A DNA stretch of 35,451 bases. Source: Asticcacaulis sp. Lineage in GTDB: Bacteria; Pseudomonadota; Alphaproteobacteria; Caulobacterales; Caulobacteraceae. The position numbers and the translations under genes were made by a program. The notes beneath the pieces are model-generated. The model did no database searches, was not told the DNA's origin, and worked only from the letters and a program-made list of their open reading frames with translations. The stretch spans positions 1 through 35,451 of the forward strand of contig JBKBWB010000001.1 in NCBI GenBank assembly GCA_046289215.1. The letters are read 5' to 3'. Positions 3,999-30,898 of the stretch are shown in pieces. The number at the start of each line of letters is the position of its first letter. The stretch's first letter is position 1.

Positions 3999-4012
3999 TG
4001 TAAACGTTTGCA
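3999..4012. promoter_or_regulatory. Putative LacI-family operator TGTAAACGTTTGCA
   Basis: Near-perfect CG-centred palindrome upstream of the TBDR. A LacI repressor is encoded in the locus. Confidence 0.7.
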
Positions 4013-4174
4013 GCTGTGGCATATTGCGGTTCTGTGAGGTGGCTTTGACGGAGAGCGTCATAACGCTAACCCCACACGTAAGGGAGAACGAAGAAATGCT
4101 TCGTCGCTCTGTATCAAATGACAATCTGGCCAGGGATGACGTTAAATGATCGCCCGGCACAGGAGGAAACACAG

Positions 4175-6613: not shown

Positions 6614-6626
6614 GAGTGATGAGCTG

Positions 6627-6651
6627 GGCGGCCTTTAGGGGCCGCCTTTTT
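6627..6651 (+). terminator. Rho-independent terminator/attenuator between TBDR and MFS genes
   Basis: GGCGGCC-TTTAGG-GGCCGCC followed by TTTTT. Confidence 0.8.
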
Positions 6652-6710
6652 CAGTTTACCAACCCGGGGAAGACCGGGCATGGTTCGCGTAAGCGGACAG
6701 GGGGAGCCCC

Positions 6711-7928: not shown

Positions 7929-7935
7929 GCGCGGT

Positions 7936-9039: not shown

Positions 9040-9831
9040 TCAAGAGGTAGACCGCAAAGCCATGCCGCTTTTGAACAGGATATAAGCAGCGACTATAAAA
9101 ATTATCATGGCAAACAATGTGTTAAGAAGTCGCTTGCTCTGACCAAGCTTCAAAGAGAGCCGGGTTCCAATCAGACCGCCCCCAAGACCGCCAACAATAA
9201 ACAAACCAGCTATCGGCCAATCAACAAGTCCTGAAAAACTATAGTTCAGGGCGGTCGACAGGCCAAAAGTGCCCACGGCCAGGAGGGAGGTGCCCACAGC
9301 CTTGATCATGGGCATACGGGTGGCCAGCATCAGGGCAGGGACAATCAGAAACCCACCGCCTATTCCAAAAAACCCGGAAGCCAGTCCGGCGATTAGCGCC
9401 AGAGCTGCGGTTCGAATACAAATCGGGCGGGTTACCACCAAGGGGCCTGTCGGGACCGCCGTGACCGGGCGCAGCATAAAGACGCCCACGGCGATCATGA
9501 TCAGCCCGAACAAAAACAGTAACATCTGTCCATCGACGGCCTTGCCGAGTGAGGACCCGAGAAGCGCGCCAACCGTCCCAAGGGCGGCAAACACCAGGGC
9601 ACACGGCCAGACCACATTGCCCTTGCGCGCATGACCGAGGAAATTGGTATAGGCATTCACGGAAACAGCCAAGGCACCTGTGCCAATGGCCATGTGCGGG
9701 TTGCTGAGGCCGACCACATAGAGCAGCAAAGGGGTCGCAAGGATCGATCCCCCACCGCCAATCAGGCCAAGTGTAAAGCCGACCAGTCCGCCGCTGAACA
9801 GTGCGCTGAGGGTTGTGTAGCTATCCGGCAT
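9040..9831 (-). CDS. Sulfite exporter TauE/SafE family membrane protein
   Basis: Duplicated GLIGGGGSIL / GFFGIGGGFLIVPAL motifs and AVGTSL. Start placed at ATG 9831 (11-nt overlap with the upstream gene) rather than 9909. Confidence 0.88.
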   Translation of the reverse strand: MPDSYTTLSALFSGGLVGFTLGLIGGGGSILATPLLLYVVGLSNPHMAIGTGALAVSVNAYTNFLGHARKGNVVWPCALVFAALGTVGALLGSSLGKAVDGQMLLFLFGLIMIAVGVFMLRPVTAVPTGPLVVTRPICIRTAALALIAGLASGFFGIGGGFLIVPALMLATRMPMIKAVGTSLLAVGTFGLSTALNYSFSGLVDWPIAGLFIVGGLGGGLIGTRLSLKLGQSKRLLNTLFAMIIFIVAAYILFKSGMALRSTS

Positions 9832-10156
9832 TGTATGCCATGCCAAAGGCGAGTGCGGCCCGGTTGCCTGAGGCGCAATAGGCCAGAACGGGTCCTTCGG
9901 CATGGGCAAGCAGGTCAGCGAGGGCGGCGGCCTGGGCCTCGGTCACAGCCCCCGACAGTACCGGCAGAAAGTGAAACGCCAGTCCCTGGGCCAGGGTGGC
10001 GGCCTTGACCGTGGTCATCAAGGGCTGGTCCGTCACTTCGTGGTCGGGGCGCATACAGACGATTGTCTTGTAACCCGCAGCGGCCAGGCCCGGGATATCC
10101 GCCGGCGCCAGTTGTGAGGCAACGTGAAACTGATCGCTAAGGGGGCGGATGGTCAT
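9821..10156 (-). CDS. DUF442/TIGR01244-type sulfurtransferase (Blh N-terminal domain-like)
   Basis: Motifs VASQL, GYKTIVCMRPDHE and active-site loop YCASGNR. SD GGAT/AGGA region upstream. Lies between the MBL-fold dioxygenase and TauE. Confidence 0.85.
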   Translation of the reverse strand: MTIRPLSDQFHVASQLAPADIPGLAAAGYKTIVCMRPDHEVTDQPLMTTVKAATLAQGLAFHFLPVLSGAVTEAQAAALADLLAHAEGPVLAYCASGNRAALAFGMAYNAG

Positions 10157-10180
10157 GACGGGATCCTGCCTTGGAGGTCT

Positions 10181-11056
10181 TTATAAGCGGTTGAGTGGAA
10201 CCTTAAGAAAGCGGCGGCCATCGGCGTCTGGCTCCGGCATATGTCCGGCCCCCATATTGACCTGAAGCGACGGCAGGATCAGGCGCGGCATATCGAGCGT
10301 CGCATCCCGGGCCGTGCGCAGGGCAACGAACGCGTCTTCTGTGACGCCGTCGTGCACATGGATATTGCCGTGGCGTTGGGCCGCGACGGTACTTTCCCAG
10401 CGGATCTCGCGGCCCTCCGGACCATAGTCGTGACACATGAACAGGCGGGTCGCGCCGGGCAGATCCAATATCCGCCGGATCGAGCGGTAAAGTTGACGCG
10501 CATCGCCGCCGGGAAAGTCAGCCCGGGCTGTGCCGCCATCGGGCATGAACAGCGTATCGCCCACAAAGGCGGCATCGCCAATGACATGGGTCATACAGGC
10601 CGGTGTATGGCCGGGCGTATGGAGCGCCCGGGCTTGGAGAGATCCTATCTGATAGGGCTCATCGTCCTGGAACAGGTGGTCAAACTGGCTGCCATCCCGT
10701 CGGAACCCATCGCCTTCGTTGAAAACGGCCCCGAAGGTGTCTTGGACTGTAGTAATGGACGCTCCGATCCCGATCCGGCCGCCAAGATGTGCCTGAAGAT
10801 AGGGGGCCGCCGACAGGTGATCCGCATGGACATGGGTTTCTATGATCCATTCGACCGATAGACCCTCTGTCCGGATATAGTCGATGATCCGGTCCGCACT
10901 GTCATAGCGCGTTCGTCCCGCGGCGTAGTCCAGATCCAGAACGGAATCGATAATGGCACAAGCCCGTGGTGCGGGATCAGACACAACATAGCTGATGGTC
11001 CAGGTGTCAGGATCAAAAAAGGCCTGAACATGTGGAACAGGCGTTTCAGACAGCAT
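10181..11056 (-). CDS. MBL-fold persulfide dioxygenase (ETHE1/Blh/SdoA-like)
   Basis: Motifs ETHVHADHLSAA, TPGHTPAC, GDTLFMPDGGTARADFPGG, CHDY and PRLILPSLQVN. ATG 11056 preferred over TTG 11074. Confidence 0.92.
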   Translation of the reverse strand: MLSETPVPHVQAFFDPDTWTISYVVSDPAPRACAIIDSVLDLDYAAGRTRYDSADRIIDYIRTEGLSVEWIIETHVHADHLSAAPYLQAHLGGRIGIGASITTVQDTFGAVFNEGDGFRRDGSQFDHLFQDDEPYQIGSLQARALHTPGHTPACMTHVIGDAAFVGDTLFMPDGGTARADFPGGDARQLYRSIRRILDLPGATRLFMCHDYGPEGREIRWESTVAAQRHGNIHVHDGVTEDAFVALRTARDATLDMPRLILPSLQVNMGAGHMPEPDADGRRFLKVPLNRL

Positions 11057-11104
11057 GAGGTCATCCCAATCCAATGAAGCCCAACAGGGGCCAGACCATG
11101 ATAT

Positions 11105-11315: not shown

Positions 11316-12272
11316 ATGAAAACGAACATTATTGGACGCGTGTCGCTCGCTGTCTTTGTCGCCCTGAGCGCGGTCGCTACGCCGGCAACGGCAGAGCCCG
11401 CGCGTCACGTCATCATCATCGGTGTGGATGGTCTGAGCACCGATGGCGTACGCAAAGCAAAAATGCCGGTCTTGCGCGACATGATGGCCAAGGGCAGCAC
11501 CAGCCTTTATGCGCGCGGTGTCATGCCGACTAGCAGCTCGTCTAACTGGGCGTCGATGATCAACGGGGCGGGGCCGGAACAGCATGGCGTGACCAATAAT
11601 TACTGGCGGGTGGGCAAGTATAAGTTTCCCACAGCGGTCACCGGGTCGGGAAATTTCTTCCCGTCCTTGTTTCAGATCGTCACCGATCAACATCCGGAGT
11701 GGGAAGTCGGCGCAATCTATCATTGGGACGGGTTTGGTAATCTCTATGACCCGCGCTTTGTGGATTACAATGTGAATCCAAAGACAGAAGATGAAGCGGC
11801 AACTTTGGCGGCTGACTATATCCGTCAGAAGAAACCCAATCTGTTGTTCGTTCATCTCGATCACGTCGACCATGCGGGTCATGCCGACGGACATGGCACC
11901 CCCCATTATTATGAGGCCGTCGAAAAGGCTGACCGCCTGATCGGACAGATCCGTCAGGCCACGATCGAGGCGGGCATAGACAAGAATACCACGATCATTG
12001 TGACCTCGGACCACGGTGGCGTCGGCAAGGGTCATGGCGGCGAAAGCCTTGCAGAACTGGAGATCCCGTGGGTCGCCTATGGTCGCGCGGTCCGGGCCGG
12101 GCGCGATTTGGATCAGCCGATCAACACCTATGATACGCCGGCCACTGCGGCGAAACTTCTGGGGGTCAACATCCCTTATGCCTGGCTTGGACGCCCGGTG
12201 GCGCAGGCGCTGGAAGGTGAGCCAGAGCCGAACCTAACCTATTCGACCCATCGCCCAGCTCCAGCCAAGTGA
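11316..12272 (+). CDS. Secreted alkaline-phosphatase-superfamily enzyme (NPP/type I phosphodiesterase-like)
   Basis: SD GGGAG precedes ATG 11316, followed by a signal peptide. Metal-site motifs IGVDG, PTSSSSNW, DHAGH, TSDHGG and HGG. Confidence 0.85.
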   Translation: MKTNIIGRVSLAVFVALSAVATPATAEPARHVIIIGVDGLSTDGVRKAKMPVLRDMMAKGSTSLYARGVMPTSSSSNWASMINGAGPEQHGVTNNYWRVGKYKFPTAVTGSGNFFPSLFQIVTDQHPEWEVGAIYHWDGFGNLYDPRFVDYNVNPKTEDEAATLAADYIRQKKPNLLFVHLDHVDHAGHADGHGTPHYYEAVEKADRLIGQIRQATIEAGIDKNTTIIVTSDHGGVGKGHGGESLAELEIPWVAYGRAVRAGRDLDQPINTYDTPATAAKLLGVNIPYAWLGRPVAQALEGEPEPNLTYSTHRPAPAK

Positions 12273-12307
12273 GGCCAAGCGGGTCTGATTGCGGACCCGC
12301 TAGACCC

Positions 12308-12351
12308 AAAAAAATCCCTTCCGGCTTGATCCTGTGACGGGCCGGAAGGGA
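12308..12351 (-). terminator. Rho-independent terminator of the minus-strand TBDR
   Basis: 11-bp stem TCCCTTCCGGC/GCCGGAAGGGA with an A7 run at 12308-12314 (U-tract on the minus strand). Confidence 0.8.
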
Positions 12352-12415
12352 GCGAGGTGTGGTTGGGGATAGTGCGGACCCGGCGGTGAACCGCCGGATC
12401 CCGGTTCAACTGGCC

Positions 12416-15247
12416 TTAGTAGGTATAGGCCAGACGAAGAACGAAGGTGCGGCCCGGCTCCATATAGTCTTTCTGGTAGCTCGGGCTGCGACCCTTGGTG
12501 GTGTAGTAACGGTGACCGTCGAGGATGTTCTGAACATCGAAATCGACCACCAGGTTGCTGTTGACATTGTAGCGGGTGTGCAGGTCGAGGCTCTTATTCG
12601 GCTGGACCCACTTGTCGATCGCGTTGTCACGCAGATCTTCGACATAGGCACCTTGGTACTGATAGGCCAATTTGCCTTCAAAGCCGTACTTCTGATAGGT
12701 CAGAGCCGCATTATACAGCAGATCCGGTGCACCGACGAACGACATGGTTTCGTTCTTGCGGTAATCCAGACCAGACTTGGCTTCTGAGTTCTGCGAGGTG
12801 AGGTTAAATTCAACCCCAAACCCGTCGAACGGCGCACCAAGACCTTCGAATGACTTGATCAGGTTCAGCTCAACGCCGGTGATGGTGGCGTTTTCACCGT
12901 TCTTCGGCTGGGAGATGGTGATCGAGCCTTGCTTGGTGTCCGCTTCCACCGAGTTACCGTTGGTGAAGATGAAGTTGTCGATCGACTTGCGGAACACAGT
13001 CAGGCTGAGCATCGAGGTCCGGTCCGGATAGAATTCCGCCGACAGGTCCAGGTTGGTGGCCTTGGCCGGTTTCAGAACCGGGTTGCCGCGGCTGATGGCC
13101 ACGATCTCATTGGTCCCTTTGTCGCGTGTGATGCTCTCACCGCGGCTGATGTTACCGTATTCCGGACGCGAGAAGCTGGTCCACAGGGCCCCACGGACCA
13201 CAAAGCGGTCTTCCGGACGCCAGATGGCCGTGATGCTCGGCAGAACATTGGTGTAGTCACGCGCAGTCTTGCCAAAGCCGGTCTTGGTGCCATCTTCGAC
13301 CCAAACGGTGGTTTCCACCTTGGTATGCTCAACCCGAGCCCCGGCGATGACTTCGACGTCGCCGGTCTTGATGTTGGCGAGGGCATAGGCCGCATAGATG
13401 CTTTCCTGACCCTTTTTATCGTCGCGCAGGTAGCGTTCGCGGCTATAGGTGGTCGGATTGGCTTTACGGGCCGCGTTGATCGCAGCTTCGACCTTATCGC
13501 GGCTCAGGATGGACCCGTAATAGTAACGTCCATCGAGGAAGTCTGTGACCTTGCGGTCCACCAGGCCCGACTTGTCGAGCGTCCCGGTGTTGACCAGGTC
13601 GCCGTCCCAGATCGGGGTGGAGTCGTATTCGCGCTCCGACTTCATGTATTTGAAGCCCGCCTTGACGAAATCCACCAGGCCGCCATCGAGGTCGTATTTG
13701 GCATCAAACCGAGCGGCCAGACGGGCATCGGTCTGTTCCGACTTGTCCATCCAGGCGCCGTCGAAGGGCAGATAGTCATCGCGGCGCTCCACATCGGCGG
13801 CAAAGCCGGCGATCTGGGGCAGGGGGAAGCGCGGGTCATAGGACGACCACAGCACGCCCGTGCCTTTGAACACGCTGGTCGGGCACGAAGCGGCCATGCT
13901 GCCGCCGCCGTTACAGTTGTAACCGACGCCGAAATTGCCGTCGCTGCCCTTGGAGCCTTTCGAATAGCTCAGGTCATAGGCCAGGCTGAGACGGTCAAAG
14001 GTCGAAGCGCCACCGGCGTTGATCGTCATCAGGTCGGAAACCTGATCCTGGGTCTCAAATGTGCGAGCGAATTGGAACGCTTTCGGGTTCCATACACCGG
14101 ACTTACCGACCATGGACCACATCGACCCCTTGGTGGCGTCAGCGTCCGTGATGATCCCGTCCTTGTCCGCATCGACGATCTGGGCCGTGGTGTAGCCATA
14201 GACCCGGCCCTTTTTCGCATCATGACCGGTGATCATGGCGTCGGGCTGCAACAGGTTCTGGTCGGCGGCATTGACCTGAACCAGACGCGCCGAGTTGCGG
14301 CTGCGATAGTCCGTATAGTCGTTGCTGCCGGTCCGCTCGAATTTCGAGATCTGACCGCGCAGATAAAGCTGGGTCGCGTCCGAGCGCCAGTCGAGCGAGA
14401 AGTTCCCGCCGTAACGGATCTGTTCGCCGCGACGATAGTCGAGGTCGATCCCCGGCAGATACATCGAGCGACCATCAATGGCCTCGGTCGAATTGGCGCG
14501 CCAGCGGTAGGGTTCCCATTCCCCGTCGTTTTCCGTTTCTTCGTTCAGATACTGGCTCTTGCCGTAGTTGAACGAGCCATAGAACCCGAACTGCTGGGCG
14601 TCGCCGAACTTGGTGGCATAATCGAACTGGCCTTGATAGCCGTCAGCGTTCTCGTTCTGGGCGCGGGCCCGGTCGTTACGCTGCATCGACACGAAGGCGC
14701 GCATTGTCGTCGGCTTGTTGAAATCAAACGCCGTCGGGGTGACAAAGTTCACGGTGCCGCCGATGGCGTCGCCGTCCATGTCCGGGGTCAGGGTCTTGGA
14801 CACCGAAATGGCCTTGAGGCCGTTCGGCGGCAGGACCGTCATCGACATTTTCCGCGATTCGGTGTCGGTCAGGGCGACGCGAACGCCGTTGATGGAATAG
14901 GCGTTGAAGGTCCCGGCGAGCCCGCGCACGGTGACATATTCGCCTTCGCCGGTTTCCTGGTTGACGACAACGTTCACGCCCGGAACACGGGCCAGAGCGT
15001 CGGCCACGTTGGCGTCGGGCAGCTTGCCCAGGTCATCCGCCGAAATCACATTGACGATGCCGTCGGCTTTTTTCTGGGCCTGGATGGCATTGGCGTTCGA
15101 CAGGCGCTGACCCTTGACCACCACTTCGGTGACAGGTTCCGCGGCCGGGGCGGCGGTTTGGGCCTGAGCGGTTGCGCTCAGTCCCAGGGAAAGCAGGCTG
15201 GTGCCGGTCAGGGCCAGCAGCCGCAAAGACAAGGTCGGTCGGTTCAT
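12416..15247 (-). CDS. TonB-dependent receptor (Xanthomonas/Caulobacter type), phosphoesterase-associated
   Basis: Signal peptide, TonB box EVVVKG, plug KLPDANVADALARVPGV and VRGL, GNPVLKP, C-terminal Tyr. SD GAGGAG. Confidence 0.93.
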   Translation of the reverse strand: MNRPTLSLRLLALTGTSLLSLGLSATAQAQTAAPAAEPVTEVVVKGQRLSNANAIQAQKKADGIVNVISADDLGKLPDANVADALARVPGVNVVVNQETGEGEYVTVRGLAGTFNAYSINGVRVALTDTESRKMSMTVLPPNGLKAISVSKTLTPDMDGDAIGGTVNFVTPTAFDFNKPTTMRAFVSMQRNDRARAQNENADGYQGQFDYATKFGDAQQFGFYGSFNYGKSQYLNEETENDGEWEPYRWRANSTEAIDGRSMYLPGIDLDYRRGEQIRYGGNFSLDWRSDATQLYLRGQISKFERTGSNDYTDYRSRNSARLVQVNAADQNLLQPDAMITGHDAKKGRVYGYTTAQIVDADKDGIITDADATKGSMWSMVGKSGVWNPKAFQFARTFETQDQVSDLMTINAGGASTFDRLSLAYDLSYSKGSKGSDGNFGVGYNCNGGGSMAASCPTSVFKGTGVLWSSYDPRFPLPQIAGFAADVERRDDYLPFDGAWMDKSEQTDARLAARFDAKYDLDGGLVDFVKAGFKYMKSEREYDSTPIWDGDLVNTGTLDKSGLVDRKVTDFLDGRYYYGSILSRDKVEAAINAARKANPTTYSRERYLRDDKKGQESIYAAYALANIKTGDVEVIAGARVEHTKVETTVWVEDGTKTGFGKTARDYTNVLPSITAIWRPEDRFVVRGALWTSFSRPEYGNISRGESITRDKGTNEIVAISRGNPVLKPAKATNLDLSAEFYPDRTSMLSLTVFRKSIDNFIFTNGNSVEADTKQGSITISQPKNGENATITGVELNLIKSFEGLGAPFDGFGVEFNLTSQNSEAKSGLDYRKNETMSFVGAPDLLYNAALTYQKYGFEGKLAYQYQGAYVEDLRDNAIDKWVQPNKSLDLHTRYNVNSNLVVDFDVQNILDGHRYYTTKGRSPSYQKDYMEPGRTFVLRLAYTY

Positions 15248-15458
15248 ATCAGGCTCCTCAGGGCCGCTGGTCCCATCAGGACGCAGTCAGCCGTCCCGCC
15301 GGGCAGGTGCCGACGGGTTGACAGGGTGGGCCGCCGCAGGATCACGGTTGCCCGGGTGAGTATCGGGGCTGTTTCCCCCCCATCCGCGTTGACCTGTCGC
15401 CCCAGCCCCGGGATCGCAGACCATAAATTTCGCAAATGAGATGCTTTATTTTATATCT

Positions 15459-17390
15459 TTATCGCATGACGCTTTCTTGACGCACACCGTTATGACTCAC
15501 AGCTTTTGTGCGCTGATGCACGGTGAACACATCCCGAAGACGGCCCTCGGCATCCACCATGCGCGCTTCGAGGGTTTCGGGCGTGACGTGCAGGGTGACA
15601 TAGTGGTGGGCCCGGACCGTCTTGGCCGAGAACCAGGGTTTGTTGGGGGCAAAGTCTTCGAGATTGCCGCCGAGGCCGCCGACCTGAACATAGGTGGTGC
15701 CGTCGCTCAGATTGACCTTGCCATCCCGGATCGGCCAGCTGCGCTCGTAGCTATGAAGGTGGCCAAAGAACACCAGATCGATCTTGTGTTTGTCATAAAG
15801 CGGCTGGAAGTCGGCCTGGACATCGGTATCGCCCTCGCCACTTTTGCCTTTGAAGCTGTCGCCGTAATCATCGCTGTCCGACGTGCGGACGTCCTGGTGA
15901 TGCATGGCGATTTTCCAGCGGGCCTTGGAGGCGCTGAGGGCGGCATCAAGCCAGGCCTTTTGGCGGGCGCGGAAGCCGGGGAATTCGCGTTCGCGGCGCT
16001 CAAGATTGGCATCCAGAACAAAGAATTCCACGTCGCCATAGACATGAGAGAAATAGGTCTCCCTGCCCTTGGACTCGGCCCCGGTCACCGCATCGCGCTT
16101 GAGATTTTGGCGGTGATAGTGGTGATACCAGTCCAGCTCTTCTTCGCCATTGCCCACGACGCCGAGGGTCGGAACTCGACCAAAGAAGGCCCCCATGCCG
16201 GTGAAGTATTCGTGGGTCCACTCAAAGCGTTTTGGGGTCGATCCACCGTCAGTCAGATCCCCCATGATCGCCAGCAGCGCGGGGCGCTCTTCCCACATCA
16301 GCTCGGACATGCGGTGATTGATGTGTGGGCGCGCTTCAGTATCGCCGGAGATCACCATCACAAACGGCCGACCGGGCAGGGGCGCGGTGCGGAAGCTGAG
16401 CAGGCCCGAGTCCAGCGACGCCGCCGTCTCGCCCGTTTTCGTGCTGCGGACGCGGTAGACATAGGGCGTGTCCGGCTTGAGGCCGCTCAGAGTCAGGCCA
16501 TGCGCGCGACGCGCACCCGGAGCAACCGGAACCGGCTTCAGCGTCTCGGCGCTTTCCCCGACCCAGACTTCGGCGCCCAAAGGTCGGTCAAATTCAAACG
16601 ACAGTTCAATTCCATCCGCACGCGGAAGATTGAGATAAGGCGGCTGGGTGAAATGAAGCCGGTCGGCATAAAGACGCCCTTCGTCCACCAGGGTGTGACG
16701 CGCCTTGAACCGCGCGGCGACGTCTTGGGGCGTAAACGCTGAGCTCTCGACGGCGGCGAGGTTCACCAGATTGGCCGGGATCATATAGGGCTCGCGGCCA
16801 AGATAGCTGTCGAGACGGATCGGACCTTTGGCCTTGATGGCTGGCACGGTCTCGGAGGCCATCGGCGCGCCGTTATGATAGACCGTCAGGCGAACCTGAC
16901 CCTTTTGCTTTGTGGTTTTGAGCGTTTCGCGCACGAGCACCAGATGATGCCAGCGTTCGAGATAGCCGAACTTTTGGCGGTCTGTATGGCTCAGGCTCAG
17001 GCCCTGTCCGGCTACGACCTGGCCGTCGTAATAGCCCAACCGCGTCTGGCCAACGCTCAGGAGCGCCCCAACCGGCTGATTAACGTGATCGAGTACCCAC
17101 AGCTCAGCGGTGAAGTCCCCTTGCGGGGCACGCTCGGACAGCACCTGGCTGTGCGTGGCCTCAAGGTCTGCGAGTCGTAGGGCCGGGCTTAAGGGGACGC
17201 TCAGGCCAGGCACCGGCTTCGCGGCCTTAGGCCGGACCGCCGCGGCCCGAGGCAGATCATAGGCCGGTTCAAGCCGCCATTCCGTCGCCTGTAAGGGTGT
17301 GACGAGCAAGGTGGTCGCCAGCAGGAGCCCCCCTAAACTGGCCGCGACCCCCATAGCACCCGCGTTTCGGTATGGACGCATGAACGGCAT
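15459..17390 (-). CDS. Secreted calcineurin-like metallophosphoesterase (purple-acid-phosphatase-like fold) with N-terminal LamG-like and Fn3-like domains
   Basis: SD AGGAGG precedes ATG 17390, followed by a hydrophobic signal. LamG-like FTAELW and WHHLVLV; Fn3-like LSGLKPDTPYVYRV; catalytic motifs GDTE, GDLTDGG, GNGE, MHH and GHLHSYER. Confidence 0.85.
   Translation of the reverse strand: MPFMRPYRNAGAMGVAASLGGLLLATTLLVTPLQATEWRLEPAYDLPRAAAVRPKAAKPVPGLSVPLSPALRLADLEATHSQVLSERAPQGDFTAELWVLDHVNQPVGALLSVGQTRLGYYDGQVVAGQGLSLSHTDRQKFGYLERWHHLVLVRETLKTTKQKGQVRLTVYHNGAPMASETVPAIKAKGPIRLDSYLGREPYMIPANLVNLAAVESSAFTPQDVAARFKARHTLVDEGRLYADRLHFTQPPYLNLPRADGIELSFEFDRPLGAEVWVGESAETLKPVPVAPGARRAHGLTLSGLKPDTPYVYRVRSTKTGETAASLDSGLLSFRTAPLPGRPFVMVISGDTEARPHINHRMSELMWEERPALLAIMGDLTDGGSTPKRFEWTHEYFTGMGAFFGRVPTLGVVGNGEEELDWYHHYHRQNLKRDAVTGAESKGRETYFSHVYGDVEFFVLDANLERREREFPGFRARQKAWLDAALSASKARWKIAMHHQDVRTSDSDDYGDSFKGKSGEGDTDVQADFQPLYDKHKIDLVFFGHLHSYERSWPIRDGKVNLSDGTTYVQVGGLGGNLEDFAPNKPWFSAKTVRAHHYVTLHVTPETLEARMVDAEGRLRDVFTVHQRTKAVSHNGVRQESVMR
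15466..15483 (-). promoter_or_regulatory. Putative Pho box (PhoB site) and promoter for the TBDR
   Basis: The minus strand reads GCGTCAA-GAAA-GCGTCAT, an 11-nt-period direct repeat resembling CTGTCAT-N4-CTGTCAT. A -10-like TATAAA follows 10 nt later. Confidence 0.55.
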
Positions 17391-17563
17391 ATTCGCCTCC
17401 TGAAAATCAGATTTAATTATCGTACTAGCGACATTATGCGACATTGTTATGAATAGAGACGGGAGTCCTCGCCAATTTCCCGGCTCACACCGCAACAAAC
17501 GGAGTTTTGCCCTGGGCTTAGCGACCTAGTCTGAACGCCATTCAGACAGAGGAGCCCAATGCG

Positions 17564-18328
17564 ATGGCCGTATTAAATGAATCCGTTGCCCTCATCACCG
17601 GCGCCAGTTCCGGGATTGGCTATGACGCCGCCCGCCTGTTCGCTCGTGAAGGCGCGCGTGTGGTGGTGACGGGACGACGCGAAGCCGCCTTAGCCGCACT
17701 GGTTGATGCCATTCGGGCAGACGGAGGGGAGGCCGTCGCCCTGGCCGGGGATATTCGGGACGAAGGCTTGGCGCGTGATCTGGTCGACCTCGCCACGTCA
17801 ACCTACGGCGGGCTGGATATTGCCTTTAACAATGCCGGGATCACAGGACCCTCGGCCCCCGTGCCGGATATGGCCCGCGATACCTGGCAAGAGGTGCTCG
17901 ACAGCAACCTGACCAGCGCCTTTCTGGGGGCGAAGTATCAGATTCCGGCGCTTGTGGCGCGTGGCGGCGGGTCATTGATCTTTACCGCTACCTTTGTCGG
18001 CCACACCGTCGGCTTTCCGGGCATGGCGGCCTATGCGGCTTCTAAGGCGGGATTGGTGGGCCTGACCCAGTGTTTGGCCGCCGAATATGGACCGCACAAG
18101 GTCCGCGTCAACGCCCTGTTGCCGGGCGGGACGGATACGCCCATGGGGCAAGCCGCGACCCCAACCCCGGAAAGCCGGGCCTTCATCGAGGGGCTTCATG
18201 CGCTGCGCCGCCTGGCCCGTCCCGACGAGATCGCGCGGGCCGCCCTGTTTCTGGCCTCGGAGGCATCCAGTTTTGTGACCGGCACAGCCTTGCTTGCGGA
18301 CGGGGGGATTTCGATCACCCGGACATGA
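17564..18328 (+). CDS. Classical short-chain dehydrogenase/reductase
   Basis: Motifs TGASSGIG, NNAG, YAASK and RVNALLPG. SD GAGGAG. Confidence 0.93.
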   Translation: MAVLNESVALITGASSGIGYDAARLFAREGARVVVTGRREAALAALVDAIRADGGEAVALAGDIRDEGLARDLVDLATSTYGGLDIAFNNAGITGPSAPVPDMARDTWQEVLDSNLTSAFLGAKYQIPALVARGGGSLIFTATFVGHTVGFPGMAAYAASKAGLVGLTQCLAAEYGPHKVRVNALLPGGTDTPMGQAATPTPESRAFIEGLHALRRLARPDEIARAALFLASEASSFVTGTALLADGGISITRT

Positions 18329-18381
18329 CGGGGCCTAACCAGATAAGTATCCTATTTCGACGGCTACGACTGCCCCACCAT

Positions 18382-18407
18382 AAAAAAGCGGACCCCGAAG
18401 GGTCCGC
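18382..18407 (-). terminator. Rho-independent terminator of the Oar-like TBDR
   Basis: The minus strand reads GCGGACCC-TTCG-GGGTCCGC-TTTTTT, with a UUCG tetraloop. Confidence 0.88.
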
Positions 18408-18461
18408 AGTTGGAGGCATCGAGACATCATCTGCACCGGATGGACAGGTGCTTTTGCTGGC

Positions 18462-21400
18462 TCAATAGGTCAGATCGAAGCCAACACGCACATAACGCGG
18501 CGTGTTGTAGAAGGTGGGCATGCCGTAGAGCGCGCTCTTCACACCCGGGCCAGAGGTCTCGAAACCTTGCCGGCGCATGACGATCTGTTGATTGTTAAAG
18601 ATATTGAACACATCGGCGCGGAGAACGAGTTTACCGCCCAATGCGTACTTTTCTGGCATGGTATAGCGCAGGGACATGTCGACGTTCTTCGTCCAGTCGG
18701 TCTTGAGACCCTTGCCACGGCCCGAGGGTTTGCCGTCACAGAAGAACGAGATCGAGCCATAGCTGGCGGCGTAGGCGTCGGTCGGGTGATATCCCATGCA
18801 GGACAGACGGGCAGGGGATTGCACCAGAACGTTTGCCCCCACCGTCAGATTATCGGTCAAGGCATAGTTGCCCCACAGTTTGAGCGTATGGGCCCGGTGG
18901 TTGGACAACAGACCCTTGCCATTGTCGGTAAAGCCCGGCGCGTCATAAAGGTACGTTCCACCGGCTGTGTCCTGTGTCGCATTTGACGTCGCCGTCACAG
19001 TGCCTTCGTAGTTCCCGTATGACTTAGACAGGGTATAGGACCCTTGCAGACCCCATTTTCCGTCAAAGGCGCGCTTGAAATCAAAGACGAGCGCTTGATA
19101 GGTGCGGGTGGGCTTTGTGTAACGACCCAATTGCGCCGAGGTGAGGGTCACAACGCGCTGAGTGGTCTCGGCGCCATAGAGGCCCTGAAGGCGAATGGTC
19201 ACATCCCGATCGCCCGGGTTCCAGACGTGATATCCGGAGGATGCGCGATACAGCGAAGGATCCAGTTTATTGTCGACGAAGTACTGATTGATCGCGTCTG
19301 CGAAATCTGAATCTTCCGACACGTCGTCCAGTTCACGACGGGTATAGTTCGCGCCAACGCTCCACAGATCATTGATGCGATAGGTCAGGCCCAGGATCAC
19401 TTCCGTGTCCTTGGTGGGCTTCAGGTCAAACGCAGCCTTGGCATTAGCGGGTTCCTGGATCCCGCCCTGGTGTACGTTACAGTTGCCTTGGCCGATAGCC
19501 GTGTTGAGGAACGCCAGGCTGCCAATGCTGGATCCAGTCGGACAGGCCGAGTCATAATGCAGTCCTGGGATATTCAGGGCCGGACCAACCGCCGCCGGAA
19601 GCCCGGTGTTGGGATCAATGACAAACCCGCCCGCCGGTGCCGCAAACTTTTGTTCAAAGTCCAGGTCACGACCACGGAAGCCCAGGCTCATGGCAGGCGG
19701 AATATAGTTTTGACCGAAGGACCCATAGAGCTTCAGATTACCGTCACCAATCGGATCCCAGCTGAAGCCAAGACGAACCGCCATATTGTCTTTCAGATCA
19801 AGATACTTCTCGCCCGAAAGGTTGTATTGAATAAAGTCGTCTTTGCGCACGCCAATCTGAAGGTTCAGATCCGGAGTTACATCCCAGGAGTCCTGGATAT
19901 ACATGGCGTTGGCTTCGGCCGAGACATTGCCGCCCCACACCAGATAGCGATAGTTCAGGGCATCTTGAGCCGGGTTCAGCGGATTGGCTTCGTAGGTAAA
20001 GGTTGCATGAGCAGACCCCGGCGCCGCCTGGGTTTTGATCATGGCATTCTTTTCGGAGTCGATCCCGAAGCGCACATGGTGACGCCCAAAGGCTTCAAAC
20101 CGCAGATCGCCATCCACGCGATAGAAATCGCGCTCGATTTCGGTCACGAGGGCAGAGGTGCTGGCCTGAGACTTTGACAAGACCGTCGACCCGCCACCGC
20201 GCGTGTCAACGACATAGTAGTCCGTCGTATTCGCGGGCAGGTCGCTAATACGGTCTTCCATTCGGCCCATAGCCGCCGAGATAGAGAGCCAGTCCGTAAA
20301 TTTCCCGTTATAGTTTATAACGTGATTTTTGCCGCCGCGCTCTCTGATCAGCTTAAAGTTCGGGTTCAGAGCGCCAGTCTGCCGGGTTCCAGCAACATAA
20401 TTATAGCCCTCACGGGTATATTTGCTGGTCGTATCAAAGAAGGTCGCGGATAAGCGATGGTCTTCATTAATGTAACCATCAATTTTCAAACCAAAGAACG
20501 GATCCTTTGTGTTTGTAACTGCATTCATGCCTGATCTGTAGAGCGCTTGCTTTGCAGTAATATCATTGAATTGATATAAACCGTAAGCAAACAGCCGATC
20601 TTTGATGATGGGCCCGCCCATCTCAACGGTATATTGACGGCTGTCGTTTCGCTTCTGATCTCCGTGCTCAAAGAAAGTATCACGGCTGTTGGCGCGCCAT
20701 CCTTCGGGTTCAATATTACCGTGCAGCGCGAACATGAAATCATTCGTGCCGGATTTCGTGGTGGCATTCACAACGCCCCCCGTTGCGCGGCCGAATTCAG
20801 CGTGGAACCCGCCCGTCTTCACTTCGACTGTTTTATAAAAATCGAAGGGGATGAGCGCGCCACCAATAAAGGTATCCGGGTTGGTAATATTAAGGCCGTC
20901 TATATAGTAGGCGTTTTCTGCAACGGATCCGCCCGAGAACGACGCACCACCCGGCGTACCCGTTACACCAAAGCTGGGGTTGCCCGCAGAAACCATCGGC
21001 GCTAACAGAGTAACCGCCGTGATACTTCTGTTAATCGGCTGTGTCGACGTGATATCTTCCAGATCGATATTCAGACCCGTAGTCGTCTTGGTGAAGTCAC
21101 TGCGACGGCTTTTGCCACGAACAACGACGACCTCAACCCCTGCTTCAACACTCTGCATCGCGATTTCGTATCGCACTTCCTGCGAAACAACAACTTTGAG
21201 CTGTGTTTCTGTCGTGTTGTAATTATTAGCGCTGACCAGCGCTTTGTACTCGCCCGGAGGAAGGAGTGAGGCAACAAAACGTCCCGAAGCATCCGTAGTA
21301 AAGGTGCGATTTATACCAGTACTTTCAGATGTAAGATTAACATTTGCATTAGATACTGCCTTGCCTTTATCATCTTTAACTGTACCAATGATTGATCCAG

Positions 21401-21563
21401 TTGTATAATCTTGTGCCACGGCAACAGTTGGAATAATTGAAATTCCAACTGTAGAAATAATAGTGGCAGAACCAGACAGCAAACTTGTTGCTAATAAAAA
21501 AGTGCGAGATAGTTTGTATTTTGCAGAGCCTCTCTTTGGGCTCATATTTGTACTTTTTGTCAT
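18462..21563 (-). CDS. Oar-like TonB-dependent receptor with N-terminal carboxypeptidase-regulatory-like domain
   Basis: Signal peptide then AQDYTTGSIIGTV...LPPGEY, ENAYYIDG, KTGGFHAEFGRATGGVVNATTKSGTN, and a C-terminal beta strand ending in Tyr. SD GGGGAG. Confidence 0.92.
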   Translation of the reverse strand: MTKSTNMSPKRGSAKYKLSRTFLLATSLLSGSATIISTVGISIIPTVAVAQDYTTGSIIGTVKDDKGKAVSNANVNLTSESTGINRTFTTDASGRFVASLLPPGEYKALVSANNYNTTETQLKVVVSQEVRYEIAMQSVEAGVEVVVVRGKSRRSDFTKTTTGLNIDLEDITSTQPINRSITAVTLLAPMVSAGNPSFGVTGTPGGASFSGGSVAENAYYIDGLNITNPDTFIGGALIPFDFYKTVEVKTGGFHAEFGRATGGVVNATTKSGTNDFMFALHGNIEPEGWRANSRDTFFEHGDQKRNDSRQYTVEMGGPIIKDRLFAYGLYQFNDITAKQALYRSGMNAVTNTKDPFFGLKIDGYINEDHRLSATFFDTTSKYTREGYNYVAGTRQTGALNPNFKLIRERGGKNHVINYNGKFTDWLSISAAMGRMEDRISDLPANTTDYYVVDTRGGGSTVLSKSQASTSALVTEIERDFYRVDGDLRFEAFGRHHVRFGIDSEKNAMIKTQAAPGSAHATFTYEANPLNPAQDALNYRYLVWGGNVSAEANAMYIQDSWDVTPDLNLQIGVRKDDFIQYNLSGEKYLDLKDNMAVRLGFSWDPIGDGNLKLYGSFGQNYIPPAMSLGFRGRDLDFEQKFAAPAGGFVIDPNTGLPAAVGPALNIPGLHYDSACPTGSSIGSLAFLNTAIGQGNCNVHQGGIQEPANAKAAFDLKPTKDTEVILGLTYRINDLWSVGANYTRRELDDVSEDSDFADAINQYFVDNKLDPSLYRASSGYHVWNPGDRDVTIRLQGLYGAETTQRVVTLTSAQLGRYTKPTRTYQALVFDFKRAFDGKWGLQGSYTLSKSYGNYEGTVTATSNATQDTAGGTYLYDAPGFTDNGKGLLSNHRAHTLKLWGNYALTDNLTVGANVLVQSPARLSCMGYHPTDAYAASYGSISFFCDGKPSGRGKGLKTDWTKNVDMSLRYTMPEKYALGGKLVLRADVFNIFNNQQIVMRRQGFETSGPGVKSALYGMPTFYNTPRYVRVGFDLTY

Positions 21564-22038
21564 TGCATTAACTCCCCATTTCTTCTTATGCCACTTTCAG
21601 GCATTTTATAATTCCGGCGGAAATTTAGAATGCGAAAGGGCCTTGCGACGAAACGTGCGTTTATTGAGATAAAGGCGTATATTTGTAATGTTATACCTGA
21701 TTTTATTACATAAAATTTATATTGAATAGTGCGAACTGCCTAAATTATTGTTTGCAATGTAAAATATAAATTTGTTGGATTCTGAATAATGTAAGTATAA
21801 TATCAATATTATTTGTATAAATTATTACAAAACTCATGTTTTGTTTAAACGGCTTTGTGAAAGCGCCCGCGATCGCCGTCGAATGAGGATATGGCTAAGC
21901 CGTGGCGCTATTCCTTCCAATTCTTCGTACGCCATGTGTGGCTAGGCGAAATACAGAAATGACAGATGTGGGATCCAGCTTGGAGTCGCCTTAAAGGCAG
22001 GCTAGAGCTGCCTTTACGTTTGTCTGTTTGAGGCCCGC

Positions 22039-22977
22039 ATGAGCGTACTACCCGAAGAGTCGTCATCCGTCCCCGCATCCGCCACTGGCCGCCGCCGCGA
22101 AACCGGCAGCCTCTCCATCGGCGCGCTGAAAGCCTTTGTGGCGGTCGTCGATCAAGGGTCATTTTCCCGGGCCGCCCAGACCTTGGGGGTGTCGCAACCC
22201 AACGTCTCCAACCAGATTAACAGCCTCGAACAGATCTGTGGCGTCCGATTGCTGAACCGTCGCACCCAAAACCAGACCCTGACCGAAGCCGGGCGTGAGC
22301 TCTATACCCGGGCCCGGCTAGTGCTGAGCCGGGTCGAGGATTTCGAAGCGACGGCCAATCTGTTTACCGGCTTGAAGCGCGGGCGGTTGACCGTGGGCTT
22401 TTCCACGCCCCCCATTACTATGCAAATGATCAGCCGCTTTCAGCAAACCTGGCCGGATGTGTCGGTGCTGACGCGGCTTGGCAATACCCGGACCCTGACC
22501 CAGGATGTTCTGGATTGTCGGGTTGACGTGGCGATCCTGTCGCTGTTGGAGCCGGATCCCGCCTTGGCCTGTCATCGCGTGTTCGAACAGGGGCTGAATG
22601 TTATGGTCCCGCTCGATCACGCGCTGGCGAAGGAACCGGCGATTAGCCCCCAGACCCTTGCCACCCTGCCGCTGGTCGCCCGCGAAGACGGCTCTGTGAC
22701 GCGCGCCTTGACGGAAATTGCCCTCGGACATGGCGCGGCCTGTCTCGACCGGGCCTTCGTGGTCGAAAGCCGCGAGGCTGCCAAGGAAGCAACCGCCCAA
22801 GGCCTTGGATTTGCTCTGGTCCTCGACGGCGAAACCGGTTCGGACAGTCGGCTGTGTGCGGTTCCGGTTGCCCCCCTGACCCGCAAGGCCGGTGTTTATC
22901 TGGTGACGCTGCGGGAAAACCTCGAGATCCCAGCGGTTTCCGCCTTTGTGGCCCTTGCCGGAAACCCGCCCGGCTGA
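22039..22977 (+). CDS. LysR-family transcriptional regulator (resembles phosphonate-catabolism-associated LysRs)
   Basis: HTH GSFSRAAQTLGVSQPNVSNQINSLE, LTEAG, and REDGSVTR (CysL/CbbR-like effector domain). Lies immediately upstream of phnZ. The phosphonate link rests on context. Confidence 0.88.
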   Translation: MSVLPEESSSVPASATGRRRETGSLSIGALKAFVAVVDQGSFSRAAQTLGVSQPNVSNQINSLEQICGVRLLNRRTQNQTLTEAGRELYTRARLVLSRVEDFEATANLFTGLKRGRLTVGFSTPPITMQMISRFQQTWPDVSVLTRLGNTRTLTQDVLDCRVDVAILSLLEPDPALACHRVFEQGLNVMVPLDHALAKEPAISPQTLATLPLVAREDGSVTRALTEIALGHGAACLDRAFVVESREAAKEATAQGLGFALVLDGETGSDSRLCAVPVAPLTRKAGVYLVTLRENLEIPAVSAFVALAGNPPG

Positions 22978-22984
22978 TATTCGC

Positions 22985-23017
22985 ATATCAAATCTAATGA
23001 ACAACAAGATTTGATAT
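22985..23017. promoter_or_regulatory. Perfect inverted repeat upstream of phnZ (putative operator or RNA hairpin)
   Basis: ATATCAAATCT-N11-AGATTTGATAT fills most of the 44-nt intergenic gap. Confidence 0.55.
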
Positions 23018-23021
23018 AATT

Positions 23022-23615
23022 ATGACTGAGCTGTCACCCTCCCTTGCCGCTGTCGCAACCCTGCGCGCGGAAATCCTCGATATCTACCTGGGCAACGCCG
23101 TTCGGCCCTATGGCCTTTATGGGCTCAACCAGCTTCAGCATGCGTTGCAGTCGGCTGCCCACGCCGAGGAACAAGGCTTGTCCTCAGCCATGGTACTGGC
23201 TTGTCTCCTGCATGATGTGGGACACATGATCCACGACCTGGGTGAAGCCCCGGCCGAAGACGGCATCGATGATGCCCACGAAGCCCTTGGCGCCAACTGG
23301 GCGGCCGCCCGTTTTGTCCCGGCGCTGAGTGAGCCAATCCGGTTGCATGTCGCCGCCAAGCGTTATTTGTGCACCGTCGATCCGGCCTATGAAGCGCGTT
23401 TGGCCAAGGACTCGCGCATCTCGCTGGCGCTTCAGGGGGGCCATATGACCGATGCAGAACTGACGACGTTTTTGGCAAAGCCCTGGGCCCAGGATGCCCT
23501 TCACCTGCGTCGGATCGACGAACTGGCCAAGGACAAGCACGCCGTCACCGACCCTCTGGAAGCCTTTCTGGACCGGCACCTGTCCCCGGAACTGATGGTG
23601 TCCATCGCCCCTTAA
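23022..23615 (+). CDS. phnZ: HD-domain diiron phosphonate-cleaving oxygenase (PhnZ/TmpB family)
   Basis: Motifs NQLQHALQSA, LLHDVGH, HEALGA, HVAAKRYL, SLALQGG and LRRIDELAK, covering the iron ligands and the phosphonate-binding H, K, S, Q and R positions of the family. Confidence 0.88.
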   Translation: MTELSPSLAAVATLRAEILDIYLGNAVRPYGLYGLNQLQHALQSAAHAEEQGLSSAMVLACLLHDVGHMIHDLGEAPAEDGIDDAHEALGANWAAARFVPALSEPIRLHVAAKRYLCTVDPAYEARLAKDSRISLALQGGHMTDAELTTFLAKPWAQDALHLRRIDELAKDKHAVTDPLEAFLDRHLSPELMVSIAP

Positions 23616-23707
23616 TAACTGACCCAACGGATCAGGACATTTCGTCCGATTGTCTCTGCATCCCCGACTCTGTAGCTTGGTTATCCTTTGCAAGATCAAG
23701 GTGCGCC

Positions 23708-24562: not shown

Positions 24563-24804
24563 GACTGTCGGGAGGACTTCTGTCTTACAGCATTGCACAG
24601 TCTGTGGGCCGCATCGCTAAAAATGTGCAATTGACACCGAGGGACAAATTCCAGCCTCTTTTGTTGACAGCCTGTCATTTAGAGGGATAATGCGATTATT
24701 GTGGCAAAGTCCACGCCGCCGGGAAACTGGCGTTATAATAATGAGGAAACGTTTCTAATCGATCTGAAGTGCAGCCCGTCTTGGGTTTTGTTTTGGATCG
24801 TAAA

Positions 24805-24818
24805 TGACACCGGTGTCA
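24805..24818. promoter_or_regulatory. Putative LacI-type operator TGACACCGGTGTCA (pectin/hexuronate regulon)
   Basis: Perfect 14-bp CG-centred palindrome 23 nt upstream of the TBDR ATG. Its core recurs at 30832-30843. Confidence 0.75.
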
Positions 24819-24841
24819 AAGCCGCACCCAGGGAGAGTGAC

Positions 24842-27736: not shown

Positions 27737-27782
27737 TACAACTCACAGGGGGGGAGTCGTCCCTCCTCCCTTGTCTCTCTCG

Positions 27783-27811
27783 CGCCGGAACTTCGGTTCC
27801 GGCGTTTTTTT
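27783..27811 (+). terminator. Rho-independent terminator of the TBDR
   Basis: CGCCGGAAC-TTCG-GTTCCGGCG followed by T7. Confidence 0.9.
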
Positions 27812-27831
27812 ATGCTCAGAGGGATAAAGAC

Positions 27832-27866
27832 AAAAAAAACCCGCCCGGTTAAAATCCGCGCGGGTT
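27832..27866 (-). terminator. Rho-independent terminator of the GH43-PL10 operon
   Basis: Imperfect stem CCCGC.CGG / CCG.GCGGG with an A8 run at 27832-27839. Confidence 0.65.
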
Positions 27867-27897
27867 CATCTTGTGGACAAGCGGTCTCTTCTGGTGG

Positions 27898-29124: not shown

Positions 29125-29140
29125 GAGACAGCCTTTCAGC

Positions 29141-30802: not shown

Positions 30803-30831
30803 GGTTTTGTCCACTTCTGCGTTCGCCCATA

Positions 30832-30843
30832 GACACCGGTGTC
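30832..30843. promoter_or_regulatory. Second copy of the operator GACACCGGTGTC in the divergent GH43/CE12 promoter
   Basis: Exact 12-bp palindrome identical to the core at 24806-24817. Confidence 0.75.
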
Positions 30844-30898
30844 AATGCGAGTTTAGAGTGATCCCGCCTTGAATCAAGCCACCAGAGTGGAGCGTGTT

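What the first reader, a model, noticed from the sequence alone, without database searches (positions are those of the whole stretch)
11316..23615. Candidate undescribed system: TBDR-fed phosphonate-ester scavenging pathway ending in a variant PhnZ
Seen within 12 kb: two secreted phosphoesterases of unrelated folds (AP superfamily; LamG-Fn3-metallophosphoesterase) flanking a TBDR that has a Pho-box-like promoter, then a LysR and a PhnZ-family C-P-cleaving oxygenase. The window has no PhnY/TmpA hydroxylase, PhnWX, C-P lyase or ABC transporter. Known: PhnZ cleaves 1-hydroxyphosphonates to release phosphate, and natural phosphonates mostly occur esterified in phosphonolipids and phosphonoglycans. 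The enzymes that release the headgroups and the outer-membrane uptake step are poorly described. Inference: this resembles a carbohydrate-utilisation locus for phosphorus. The TBDR would import phosphonate or phosphodiester fragments, periplasmic esterases would free the headgroup, and PhnZ would break the C-P bond. The SDR and Oar-like TBDR in between may be insertions or members.
Basis: partly seen in the sequence, partly recalled or inferred. Interest (0 to 1): 0.78.

Follow-up and report, generated by a model that had tools for sequence, protein, structure and literature searches.

The report
Split phosphonolipid-scavenging locus, swapped esterase
This stretch holds part of a recurrent gene cluster in which an outer-membrane importer and two unstudied esterases sit with carbon-phosphorus-cleaving genes, so it likely lets starved bacteria take up phosphonate-bearing lipid fragments, free the head group and release its phosphate.

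Summary
All seven genes are real. The receptor (TBDR), the LamG-metallophosphoesterase, the NPP-like esterase, LysR and phnZ belong to one recurrent alphaproteobacterial locus; the SDR and the Oar-like receptor are insertions. Orthologues of the receptor lie within 10 kb of C-P catabolic genes in 39 of 40 genomes. Most carry phospholipase C; 9 of 49 loci carry this metallophosphoesterase instead, none both. Its active site has the substitutions that turn a model enzyme into a diesterase/phosphonate-esterase. The Pho-box-like motif is invariant in 13 of 13 aligned promoters. PhnZ keeps all iron ligands, has no PhnY partner nearby and lacks the amine-binding Glu. Best reading: a phosphate-starvation phosphonolipid utilisation system; no substrate is shown. 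The concept is known (Bacteroidota PUS loci), as are the cytoplasmic enzymes; this SusD-less receptor clade, the esterase family and the PhnZ subfamily were not found in the papers searched. The scan noted the same kind of locus before, on another genome (e1-9981329).

The parts
11316..12272 (+). NPP-like alkaline-phosphatase-superfamily esterase, likely exported; short form without the C-terminal Fn3-associated/PA14 domains of its 550-aa orthologues; accessory member
   Evidence: PF01663; best PDB matches are ENPP/NPP diesterases; 9 of 12 orthologues in three other genera lie within 10 kb of phnZ, 4 directly upstream of it on the same strand; long form domains; same short form in G010
12416..15247 (-). 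TonB-dependent receptor of a clade tied to phosphonate catabolism; predicted importer
   Evidence: TIGR01782; 8 of 8 orthologues (66-71%) among 60 relatives within about 5 kb of a phnZ-like gene; 39 of 40 genomes in the GTDB scan; no solved relative at E<=1e-10
15466..15482 (-). Conserved Pho-box-like direct repeat about 235 bases upstream of the receptor, overlapping the last codons of the esterase gene
   Evidence: invariant core in 13 of 13 aligned promoters; exact pattern found once in each of 24 of 174 loci, all upstream of this receptor. PhoB binding is inferred
15459..17390 (-). LamG + Fn3 + calcineurin-like metallophosphoesterase with D-T-E, GDLTDG and GNG motifs; predicted phosphodiesterase/phosphonate-ester hydrolase that replaces phospholipase C
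   Evidence: model pLDDT 90, best fold match purple acid phosphatase PPD1 3zk4, E 1.5e-23; motifs; 11 of 12 homologues at >=48% next to phnZ; never with PLC in 49 receptor loci
17434..17453 (-). Conserved 20-base element upstream of the esterase (degenerate Pho-box-like repeat); in relatives part of the divergent promoter shared with the FAD oxidase
   Evidence: identical in 2 of 3 orthologous promoters and one change in the third; blastn 17406-17453, 83%
17564..21563 (.). Intervening SDR (17564-18328+) and Oar-like receptor (18462-21563-): not members, an insertion between the esterase-receptor cassette and lysR-phnZ
   Evidence: no Oar match and only three 36-39% SDRs in 42 receptor loci; genus orthologues lie on other contigs or at least 54 kb from phnZ; GC 0.41-0.55 at 19-22 kb against about 0.61 either side
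22039..22977 (+). LysR regulator of the aminoethylphosphonate-associated type
   Evidence: best family TIGR03339, under cut-off; pairs with this PhnZ subfamily in 18 of 20 loci
22985..23017 (.). Perfect 11-11-11 inverted repeat directly before phnZ; likely LysR operator
   Evidence: sequence; conserved upstream of orthologues; top two scores in the window with a matrix from 11 orthologous sites, 32.2 and 29.7 against 21.8 next
23022..23615 (+). PhnZ/TmpB-family di-iron oxygenase, 'YGL' subfamily: Tyr in place of the YxxE glutamate, conserved Asp130; no PhnY/TmpA partner nearby
   Evidence: YxxE role from PMC8177086; partner search

Best explanation
The window holds a rearranged half of a recurrent alphaproteobacterial gene cluster that likely scavenges phosphorus from phosphonolipids and related phosphonate esters when phosphate is scarce. 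Shown: gene content, linkage, motifs, promoter conservation. Inferred steps: PhoB would induce the receptor and the LamG esterase; the receptor would import soluble phosphonate-ester fragments into the periplasm; the LamG esterase, standing in for the phospholipase C of most copies and helped by the NPP-like enzyme, would cut the P-O-C ester and free aminoethylphosphonate-type head groups; the DUF5690 protein (contig C347) would carry them into the cell; PhnX with a PbfD-type oxidase would degrade AEP and N-methyl-AEP, while the LysR-controlled PhnZ would oxidise head groups that already carry a 1-hydroxyl, which is why no PhnY is needed. Whether cleavage comes before or after outer-membrane transport is open.
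For: Receptor clade: 36 of 41 loci have phnZ, 3 more have pbfA+phnX+pbfD instead, the last 2 end at contig edges; 37 of 41 have PC-PLC, 28 DUF5690, 25 FAD oxidase, 25 phnX (families). Control: paralogous receptors (33-38%) lie on other contigs or over 1.5 Mb from phnZ in 7 of 7 genomes that have both, and their neighbouring phosphoesterase keeps GNHEY (2 of 2 examined). PLC and LamG esterase exclude each other: 37 PLC only, 9 esterase only, 0 both, 3 truncated, of 49 loci, in both LysR and PhnR architectures. The esterase has Glu, Gly and Gly at the positions of CthPnkp His189, Arg237 and His264 (my motif mapping); in that enzyme H189E gives a diesterase, Arg237 and His264 are needed for monoesterase only, and loss of His264 raises activity on a phosphonate ester (PMC2190708). 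A 36% homologue sits with phnW and a phnX-like gene, two others behind phnCDE. PbfA, specific for (R)-hydroxy-AEP, replaces PhnZ in 3 loci whose ABC binding protein is PhnS2, over cut-off in the one tested; hydroxy-AEP occurs in amoebal glycans and Bdellovibrio lipids, and phnZ and pbfA are alternatives in phnWX clusters (PMC8154272). 5 of 5 genomes tested with only receptor-lysR-phnZ-PLC(-DUF5690) have the oxidase-phnX pair elsewhere, like this genome.
Against: No substrate, expression or transport data; all function is by context and motif. This genome gave no TIGR03364 match over cut-off (79.5% complete, and C347 ends at the phnX start). The loss of the amine-binding Glu in PhnZ argues against hydroxy-AEP as its substrate unless Asp130 or another residue compensates. 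Two loci have both PbfA and a divergent PhnZ. Four of five more distant esterase homologues (34-43%) have no phosphonate genes nearby; 3 of 12 NPP-like orthologues outside the genus are unlinked and the nearest relative G010 keeps that gene without the rest. PC-PLC is an ordinary Pho-regulated phospholipase in Caulobacter (PMC11208175). Related genomes are not independent observations.
Confidence: 0.65

Rival explanations
1. General phosphate-starvation island: the receptor imports free aminophosphonates (or ordinary phospholipid head groups), and the esterases are broad phosphodiesterases for phosphatidylcholine, sphingomyelin or nucleotides that cluster here only through shared PhoB control.
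For: PhoD, PAP2 and PstS genes occur in some copies; Caulobacter PhoB controls many receptors, diesterases and a phospholipase C (PMC11208175); diesterase-type motifs do not distinguish phosphate diesters from phosphonate monoesters.
Against: The receptor clade is not found without C-P genes where the contig allows a view; the esterase occupies the PLC slot one-for-one and joins three different phosphonate pathways.
Confidence: 0.2
2. The LysR/YGL-PhnZ version targets non-amine or glycan-derived phosphonates (for example 1,2-dihydroxyethyl- or hydroxymethylphosphonate esters of phosphonoglycans), the LamG domain binding the sugar; only the PhnR/YxxE version handles hydroxy-AEP lipids.
For: No Glu at the E27 position in 114 of 114 parsed homologues; separate, fully supported clade with its own regulator; two genomes carry both PhnZ types in separate loci; LamG, Fn3 and PA14 domains on the esterases.
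Against: YGL-type loci still carry PC-PLC or the AEP oxidase-phnX pair; the LysR is nearest the AEP-associated family; Asp130 is conserved in 119 of 120 and might replace the Glu (untested).
Confidence: 0.1
3. In this genome the cluster is a decaying remnant: inverted, interrupted and no longer a working pathway.
For: Esterase-receptor cassette is inverted against lysR-phnZ, the divergent oxidase is replaced by SDR-Oar, DUF5690 by a methyltransferase; the 11.3-kb block is absent at this place in G010; AP gene is shortened.
Against: All frames are intact, catalytic residues and three promoter elements are kept; phnX-DUF5690 is present elsewhere; the same order appears in other runs at about 98% identity; split layouts are common.
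Confidence: 0.05

Closest known systems
Bacteroidota phosphate utilisation systems, PUS/PusCD (PMC8115612; bioRxiv 10.64898/2026.09.03.749221)
   Same: Low-phosphate TonB-dependent transporter clustered with periplasmic phosphodiesterases; PusCD1/2 are needed for growth on a phospholipid; some PUS clusters include phosphonate-degrading genes and inner-membrane transporters.
   Different: No SusD-like lipoprotein and no ECF sigma/anti-sigma pair here; TIGR01782-type receptor; LysR or PhnR plus Pho box; linkage is to C-P enzymes in nearly every copy; the shown PUS substrate is phosphatidylinositol.
PbfD-PhnX and PbfA-PhnX aminophosphonate pathways (PMC10590968, PMC8154272)
   Same: Relatives carry TIGR03364 oxidase and PhnX over cut-off without phnW, some with PbfA; this genome has phnX.
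   Different: Those papers' main texts do not mention TonB receptors or phospholipases (for PMC10590968); the upstream ester-release and import steps are the addition here.
PhnY*/PhnZ, TmpA/TmpB and GmPhnY/GmPhnZ oxidative C-P cleavage
   Same: HD di-iron ligands H40, H64, D65, H86, H109, D166 all kept.
   Different: No hydroxylase partner nearby; YxxE loop is YxxY/S/H/A. Stand-alone phnZ beside hydrolytic clusters is already noted (PMC8154272).
Purple acid phosphatases / PPD1 and calcineurin-like phosphodiesterases (CthPnkp, MJ0936, Rv0805)
   Same: Fn3 + metallophosphoesterase fold, best match 3zk4.
   Different: 16-18% identity; no GDxxY tyrosine, GNG for GNH, D-x-E for D-x-G/H; extra N-terminal LamG domain.
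Phosphocholine-specific phospholipase C (TIGR03396)
   Same: Occupies the same slot in 37 of 49 receptor loci.
   Different: Unrelated fold; absent from the window's locus, though a fragmentary PLC lies on C162 beside a DeoR gene.

Membership tests
Bacteroidota PUS (PusCD) locus | TonB-dependent transporter clustered with exported phosphoesterases | tested here: met
Bacteroidota PUS (PusCD) locus | SusD-like surface lipoprotein paired with the transporter | tested here: not met
   no SusD/RagB Pfam hit in 23 window proteins or in the recurrent neighbours scanned
Bacteroidota PUS (PusCD) locus | Induction by phosphate depletion and need for growth on an organophosphorus source | not testable with these tools
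   only a conserved Pho-box-like motif
PhnZ/TmpB HD mixed-valent di-iron oxygenase | H...HD...H...H...D iron ligands | tested here: met
   invariant in 120 of 120 homologues; aligned to 4mlm and 6npa
PhnZ/TmpB HD mixed-valent di-iron oxygenase | YxxE substrate-gating loop (Y24/E27) | tested here: not met
   Tyr30 kept, Tyr33 at the Glu position; 0 of 114 parsed homologues have Glu (loop defined in PMC8177086)
PhnZ/TmpB HD mixed-valent di-iron oxygenase | Score over the TIGR03276 cut-off | tested here: not met
   181.5 against 214.6 bits; three relatives also fall under it
PhnY*Z / TmpAB two-enzyme pathway | Adjacent 2-oxoglutarate C1-hydroxylase | tested here: not met
   none in the window; no PhyH or TauD hit among 79 of 89 unlabelled neighbour clusters scanned (the other 10 were annotated); own genome has one weak, unlinked PhyH match and no TmpA match (whose control was silent)
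PbfD-PhnX pathway | TIGR03364 oxidase next to phnX, without phnW | tested here: inconclusive
   met in relatives; in this genome phnX starts at the end of contig C347 and no oxidase passes the cut-off
Purple acid phosphatase | DxG, GDxxY, GNH(D/E), VxxH, GHxH motifs with the Tyr ligand (motifs recalled) | tested here: not met
   GDTE, GDLTD, GNGE, MHH, GHLH; fold matches
Phosphonate monoester hydrolase (AP superfamily, recalled) | Sulfatase-like sequence with formylglycine nucleophile | tested here: not met
   the window's AP enzyme matches NPP/ENPP best and has Ser at the nucleophile position; no such hydrolase among 54 PDB matches
TIGR03339 AEP-associated LysR | Score over curated cut-off | tested here: not met
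   207 against 341 bits, but clearly the best family

The most novel reading that the evidence does not exclude
This is the dedicated outer-membrane and periplasmic entry route for phosphonolipids in Caulobacterales and Sphingomonadales: a phosphonate-specific TonB receptor, a new LamG-metallophosphoesterase family that is a true phosphonolipid 'phospholipase C' evolved independently of PC-PLC, DUF5690 as a new phosphonate permease, and a Glu-less PhnZ subfamily with a substrate not yet assigned to any oxygenase.
Probability: 0.4. Interest if true: 0.8.

Novelty: new variant of a known kind. Interest (0 to 1): 0.62.

Why it matters
Natural aminophosphonates occur mostly bound in lipids and glycans (PMC3266647), yet the described catabolic enzymes act on free compounds and a 2023 review presumes entry through porins and does not mention TonB (PMC10574752). 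The locus names testable candidates for each missing step (receptor, ester hydrolase, inner-membrane permease) in harmless, cultivable Caulobacter, Asticcacaulis, Brevundimonas and Sphingomonas species, and flags a large PhnZ subfamily whose substrate probably differs from the characterised ones, which bears on how phnZ counts in metagenomes are read.

Tried and rejected
Structured leader RNA before the receptor: no Rfam match there, RNAalifold covariation term 0.08, folding z -0.16: rejected. SDR or Oar-like receptor as members: rejected. C-P lyase in the genome: no PhnJ match, control rang in E. coli (genome 79.5% complete). Sigma-70/terminator scan: at chance level. A loose palindrome pattern for the LysR box was not conserved; a matrix was used instead. 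Receptor in an even sample of the class: 0 of 400 genomes, with only 2 candidates scored per genome, so it shows patchiness at most. No solved structure related to the receptor at E<=1e-10. Expression: no RNA holder listed. The PhnZ tree is the quick tree only; the careful search did not finish, and loci whose motif my pattern failed to parse (mostly Sphingomonadaceae) were left out. Two primary PhnZ papers were not held, so the loop roles come from a review, and roles of other second-shell residues are recalled. Paper search returned irrelevant hits. Look-ups of earlier findings by sequence and by genome gave nothing. Whether Asp130 faces the substrate was not tested: no coordinates were available.

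Full report
Observation. The window is contig C332 of a 79.5%-complete genome; the nearest named records point to Asticcacaulis, Caulobacteraceae. Between 11316 and 23615 lie an NPP-like esterase, a TonB-dependent receptor, a LamG-Fn3-metallophosphoesterase, an SDR, an Oar-like receptor, a LysR and a PhnZ-like oxygenase. Contigs from other runs bridge most junctions at about 98% identity.

The receptor marks a conserved locus. Among 60 relatives, 8 of 8 receptor orthologues lie within about 5 kb of a phnZ-like gene. A scan of GTDB species genomes returned 42 loci from 40 genomes (Caulobacteraceae, Sphingomonadaceae, Hyphomonadaceae, Niveispirillum/Azospirillum and others); 41 hold the receptor match. 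Within 10 kb, 36 have phnZ, 37 PC-phospholipase C, 28 DUF5690, 25 a TIGR03364 oxidase, 25 phnX, 5 pbfA, 25 PhnR and 13 the LysR (families). Three loci without phnZ have pbfA, phnX, the oxidase and an ABC system (PhnS2 over cut-off in the one tested). The two left are contig-truncated, one being half of a split gene whose other half has phnZ, so 39 of 40 genomes show a C-P gene. The scan needs exact peptide patterns and kin are not independent. Paralogous receptors at 33-38% are far from phnZ in 7 of 7 genomes with both.

The window is a split copy. In G028, G031 and G007 the order is phnX and oxidase on one strand, then esterase-receptor-lysR-phnZ-DUF5690. Here the esterase-receptor cassette is inverted, SDR and Oar sit in between, and phnX-DUF5690 lies on C347, which ends at the phnX start. 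No oxidase passes the cut-off in this genome, which may be an assembly gap. Five of five tested genomes with a short locus keep oxidase-phnX elsewhere. SDR and Oar orthologues in the genus are on other contigs or at least 54 kb from phnZ.

The LamG esterase replaces phospholipase C. Of 49 receptor loci, 37 have PLC only, 9 the esterase only, none both, 3 are truncated. Eleven of 12 homologues at 48% or more are next to phnZ, the twelfth is cut by its contig end; two of the 11 are near-identical. Of five more distant ones, one sits with phnW and a phnX-like gene and four show no phosphonate genes. The model (pLDDT 90) matches purple acid phosphatases, but the motifs are D347-T-E349, G-D375-L-T-D378-G379 and invariant G410-N411-G412 (numbering of P0001). 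By motif these correspond to His189, Arg237 and His264 of CthPnkp, where H189E gives a diesterase, Arg237 and His264 are needed only for monoester hydrolysis and loss of His264 raises activity on a phosphonate ester (PMC2190708, passages). This predicts a diesterase/phosphonate-ester hydrolase; it does not choose between the two.

The NPP-like enzyme is an accessory member. Its best solved relatives are NPP diesterases. Nine of 12 orthologues in three other genera lie within 10 kb of phnZ, four directly upstream; three are unlinked. In the genus, 6 of 8 lie 8-20 kb from a phnZ-like sequence (one interrupted), one genome has no phnZ match and one contig is too short. It travels with a second receptor cassette rather than with the window's receptor, and is shorter than most orthologues.

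PhnZ. All six iron ligands are invariant in 120 of 120 nearest homologues; the Glu of the YxxE loop that binds the substrate amine (PMC8177086, passages) is absent in 114 of 114 parsed, and Asp130 (Ala in PhnZ) is kept in 119 of 120. These form one clade of 20 of 41 rows (quick tree, support 100, long branch); 18 of the 20 pair with LysR, 19 of 21 Glu-type with PhnR, and two genomes carry both types. No PhyH or TauD hydroxylase was found among neighbours (my ORF caller can miss genes). Stand-alone phnZ as an alternative to pbfA, and hydroxy-AEP in natural lipids and glycans, are in print (PMC8154272, passages).

Regulation. A direct repeat at 15466-15482 is invariant in 13 of 13 LysR-type receptor promoters; a 20-base element before the esterase and an inverted repeat before phnZ are also conserved. 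Calling them PhoB and LysR sites is inference from recalled consensus forms. A structured leader RNA was not supported.

Mechanism and odds. Most likely (0.65): phosphate starvation induces import of phosphonate-ester fragments, periplasmic release of the head group, DUF5690 uptake, then PbfD-PhnX for AEP and N-methyl-AEP (activities from PMC10590968, passages) and PhnZ for pre-hydroxylated forms. Rivals: general Pho island (0.2), non-amine or glycan substrates (0.1), remnant (0.05).

Known versus new. PUS loci of Flavobacterium already pair TonB transporters with phosphodiesterases and, in some, phosphonate genes (PMC8115612, passages); PusCD import of a phospholipid head group is shown in a 2026 preprint (abstract and passages; supplements closed). 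Caulobacter PhoB receptors are presumed to import P compounds (PMC11208175, passages). I found no description of this alphaproteobacterial locus, receptor clade, esterase family or DUF5690 role in searches or in passages of PMC10574752, PMC10590968, PMC12366243, PMC13576164 and PMC3266647; the library lacks most subscription journals and no supplements were read. An earlier, unreviewed note of this scan on another genome reaches the same reading; I saw it after stating mine and count it as no evidence.

Verdict. Real, conserved, testable; a new variant of a known kind. Interest 0.62.

Noticed in passing
L033, L035, L037, L042, L043, L203, L206, L232-L240: A second TonB receptor with a sulfotransferase, an Asp/Asn-hydroxylase-like 2-oxoglutarate dioxygenase and TPR-sulfotransferase genes recurs beside the same phn genes, often in the slot of the window's receptor. 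The hydroxylase-like genes are candidates for a non-homologous PhnY substitute. A 48% relative of that receptor, in two frames, lies on this genome's contig C364.
   Followed up: partly
L040-L047, L044-L046 receptor promoters, L144, L164, L170: PhnR-type copies share a TGGT-N4-ACCA palindrome before phnZ and the receptor instead of the Pho box/LysR elements.
   Followed up: partly
L108 (G010:C77) against window 12283-23630: The nearest relative has the AP gene joined directly to the methyltransferase-receptor genes; the whole 11.3-kb block is an insertion here or a deletion there.
   Followed up: partly
L049 (G020:C38): A TmpA-like hydroxylase fused to a PhnZ-like domain, with DUF5690, oxidase and phnX, in the same genus; the same genome has a phnZ-like frame with a stop codon near the AP gene.
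   Followed up: no
window 1022-8961: Sucrose-type utilisation locus: ROK kinase, GH13 hydrolase, TonB receptor, MFS transporter, LacI.
   Followed up: no
window 9040-11074: TauE/SafE exporter, a short ORF and a persulfide-dioxygenase-like metallo-beta-lactamase fold protein.
   Followed up: no
window 24701-35449: Pectin-type utilisation locus: TonB receptor, two pectate lyases, GH43, GDSL and carboxylesterases, mannitol-dehydrogenase-family gene.
   Followed up: no
L245 (G007:C15), L246 (G018:C3): A paralogous receptor followed by a canonical GNHEY purple-acid-phosphatase-like gene, with no phn gene within the 20 kb; in G007 a strong PhyH match lies about 8 kb away.
   Followed up: partly
L149, L150, L172; G000:C162: A DeoR-receptor-PLC unit recurs next to or apart from the phn locus; this genome has DeoR beside a PLC at a contig end.
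   Followed up: no
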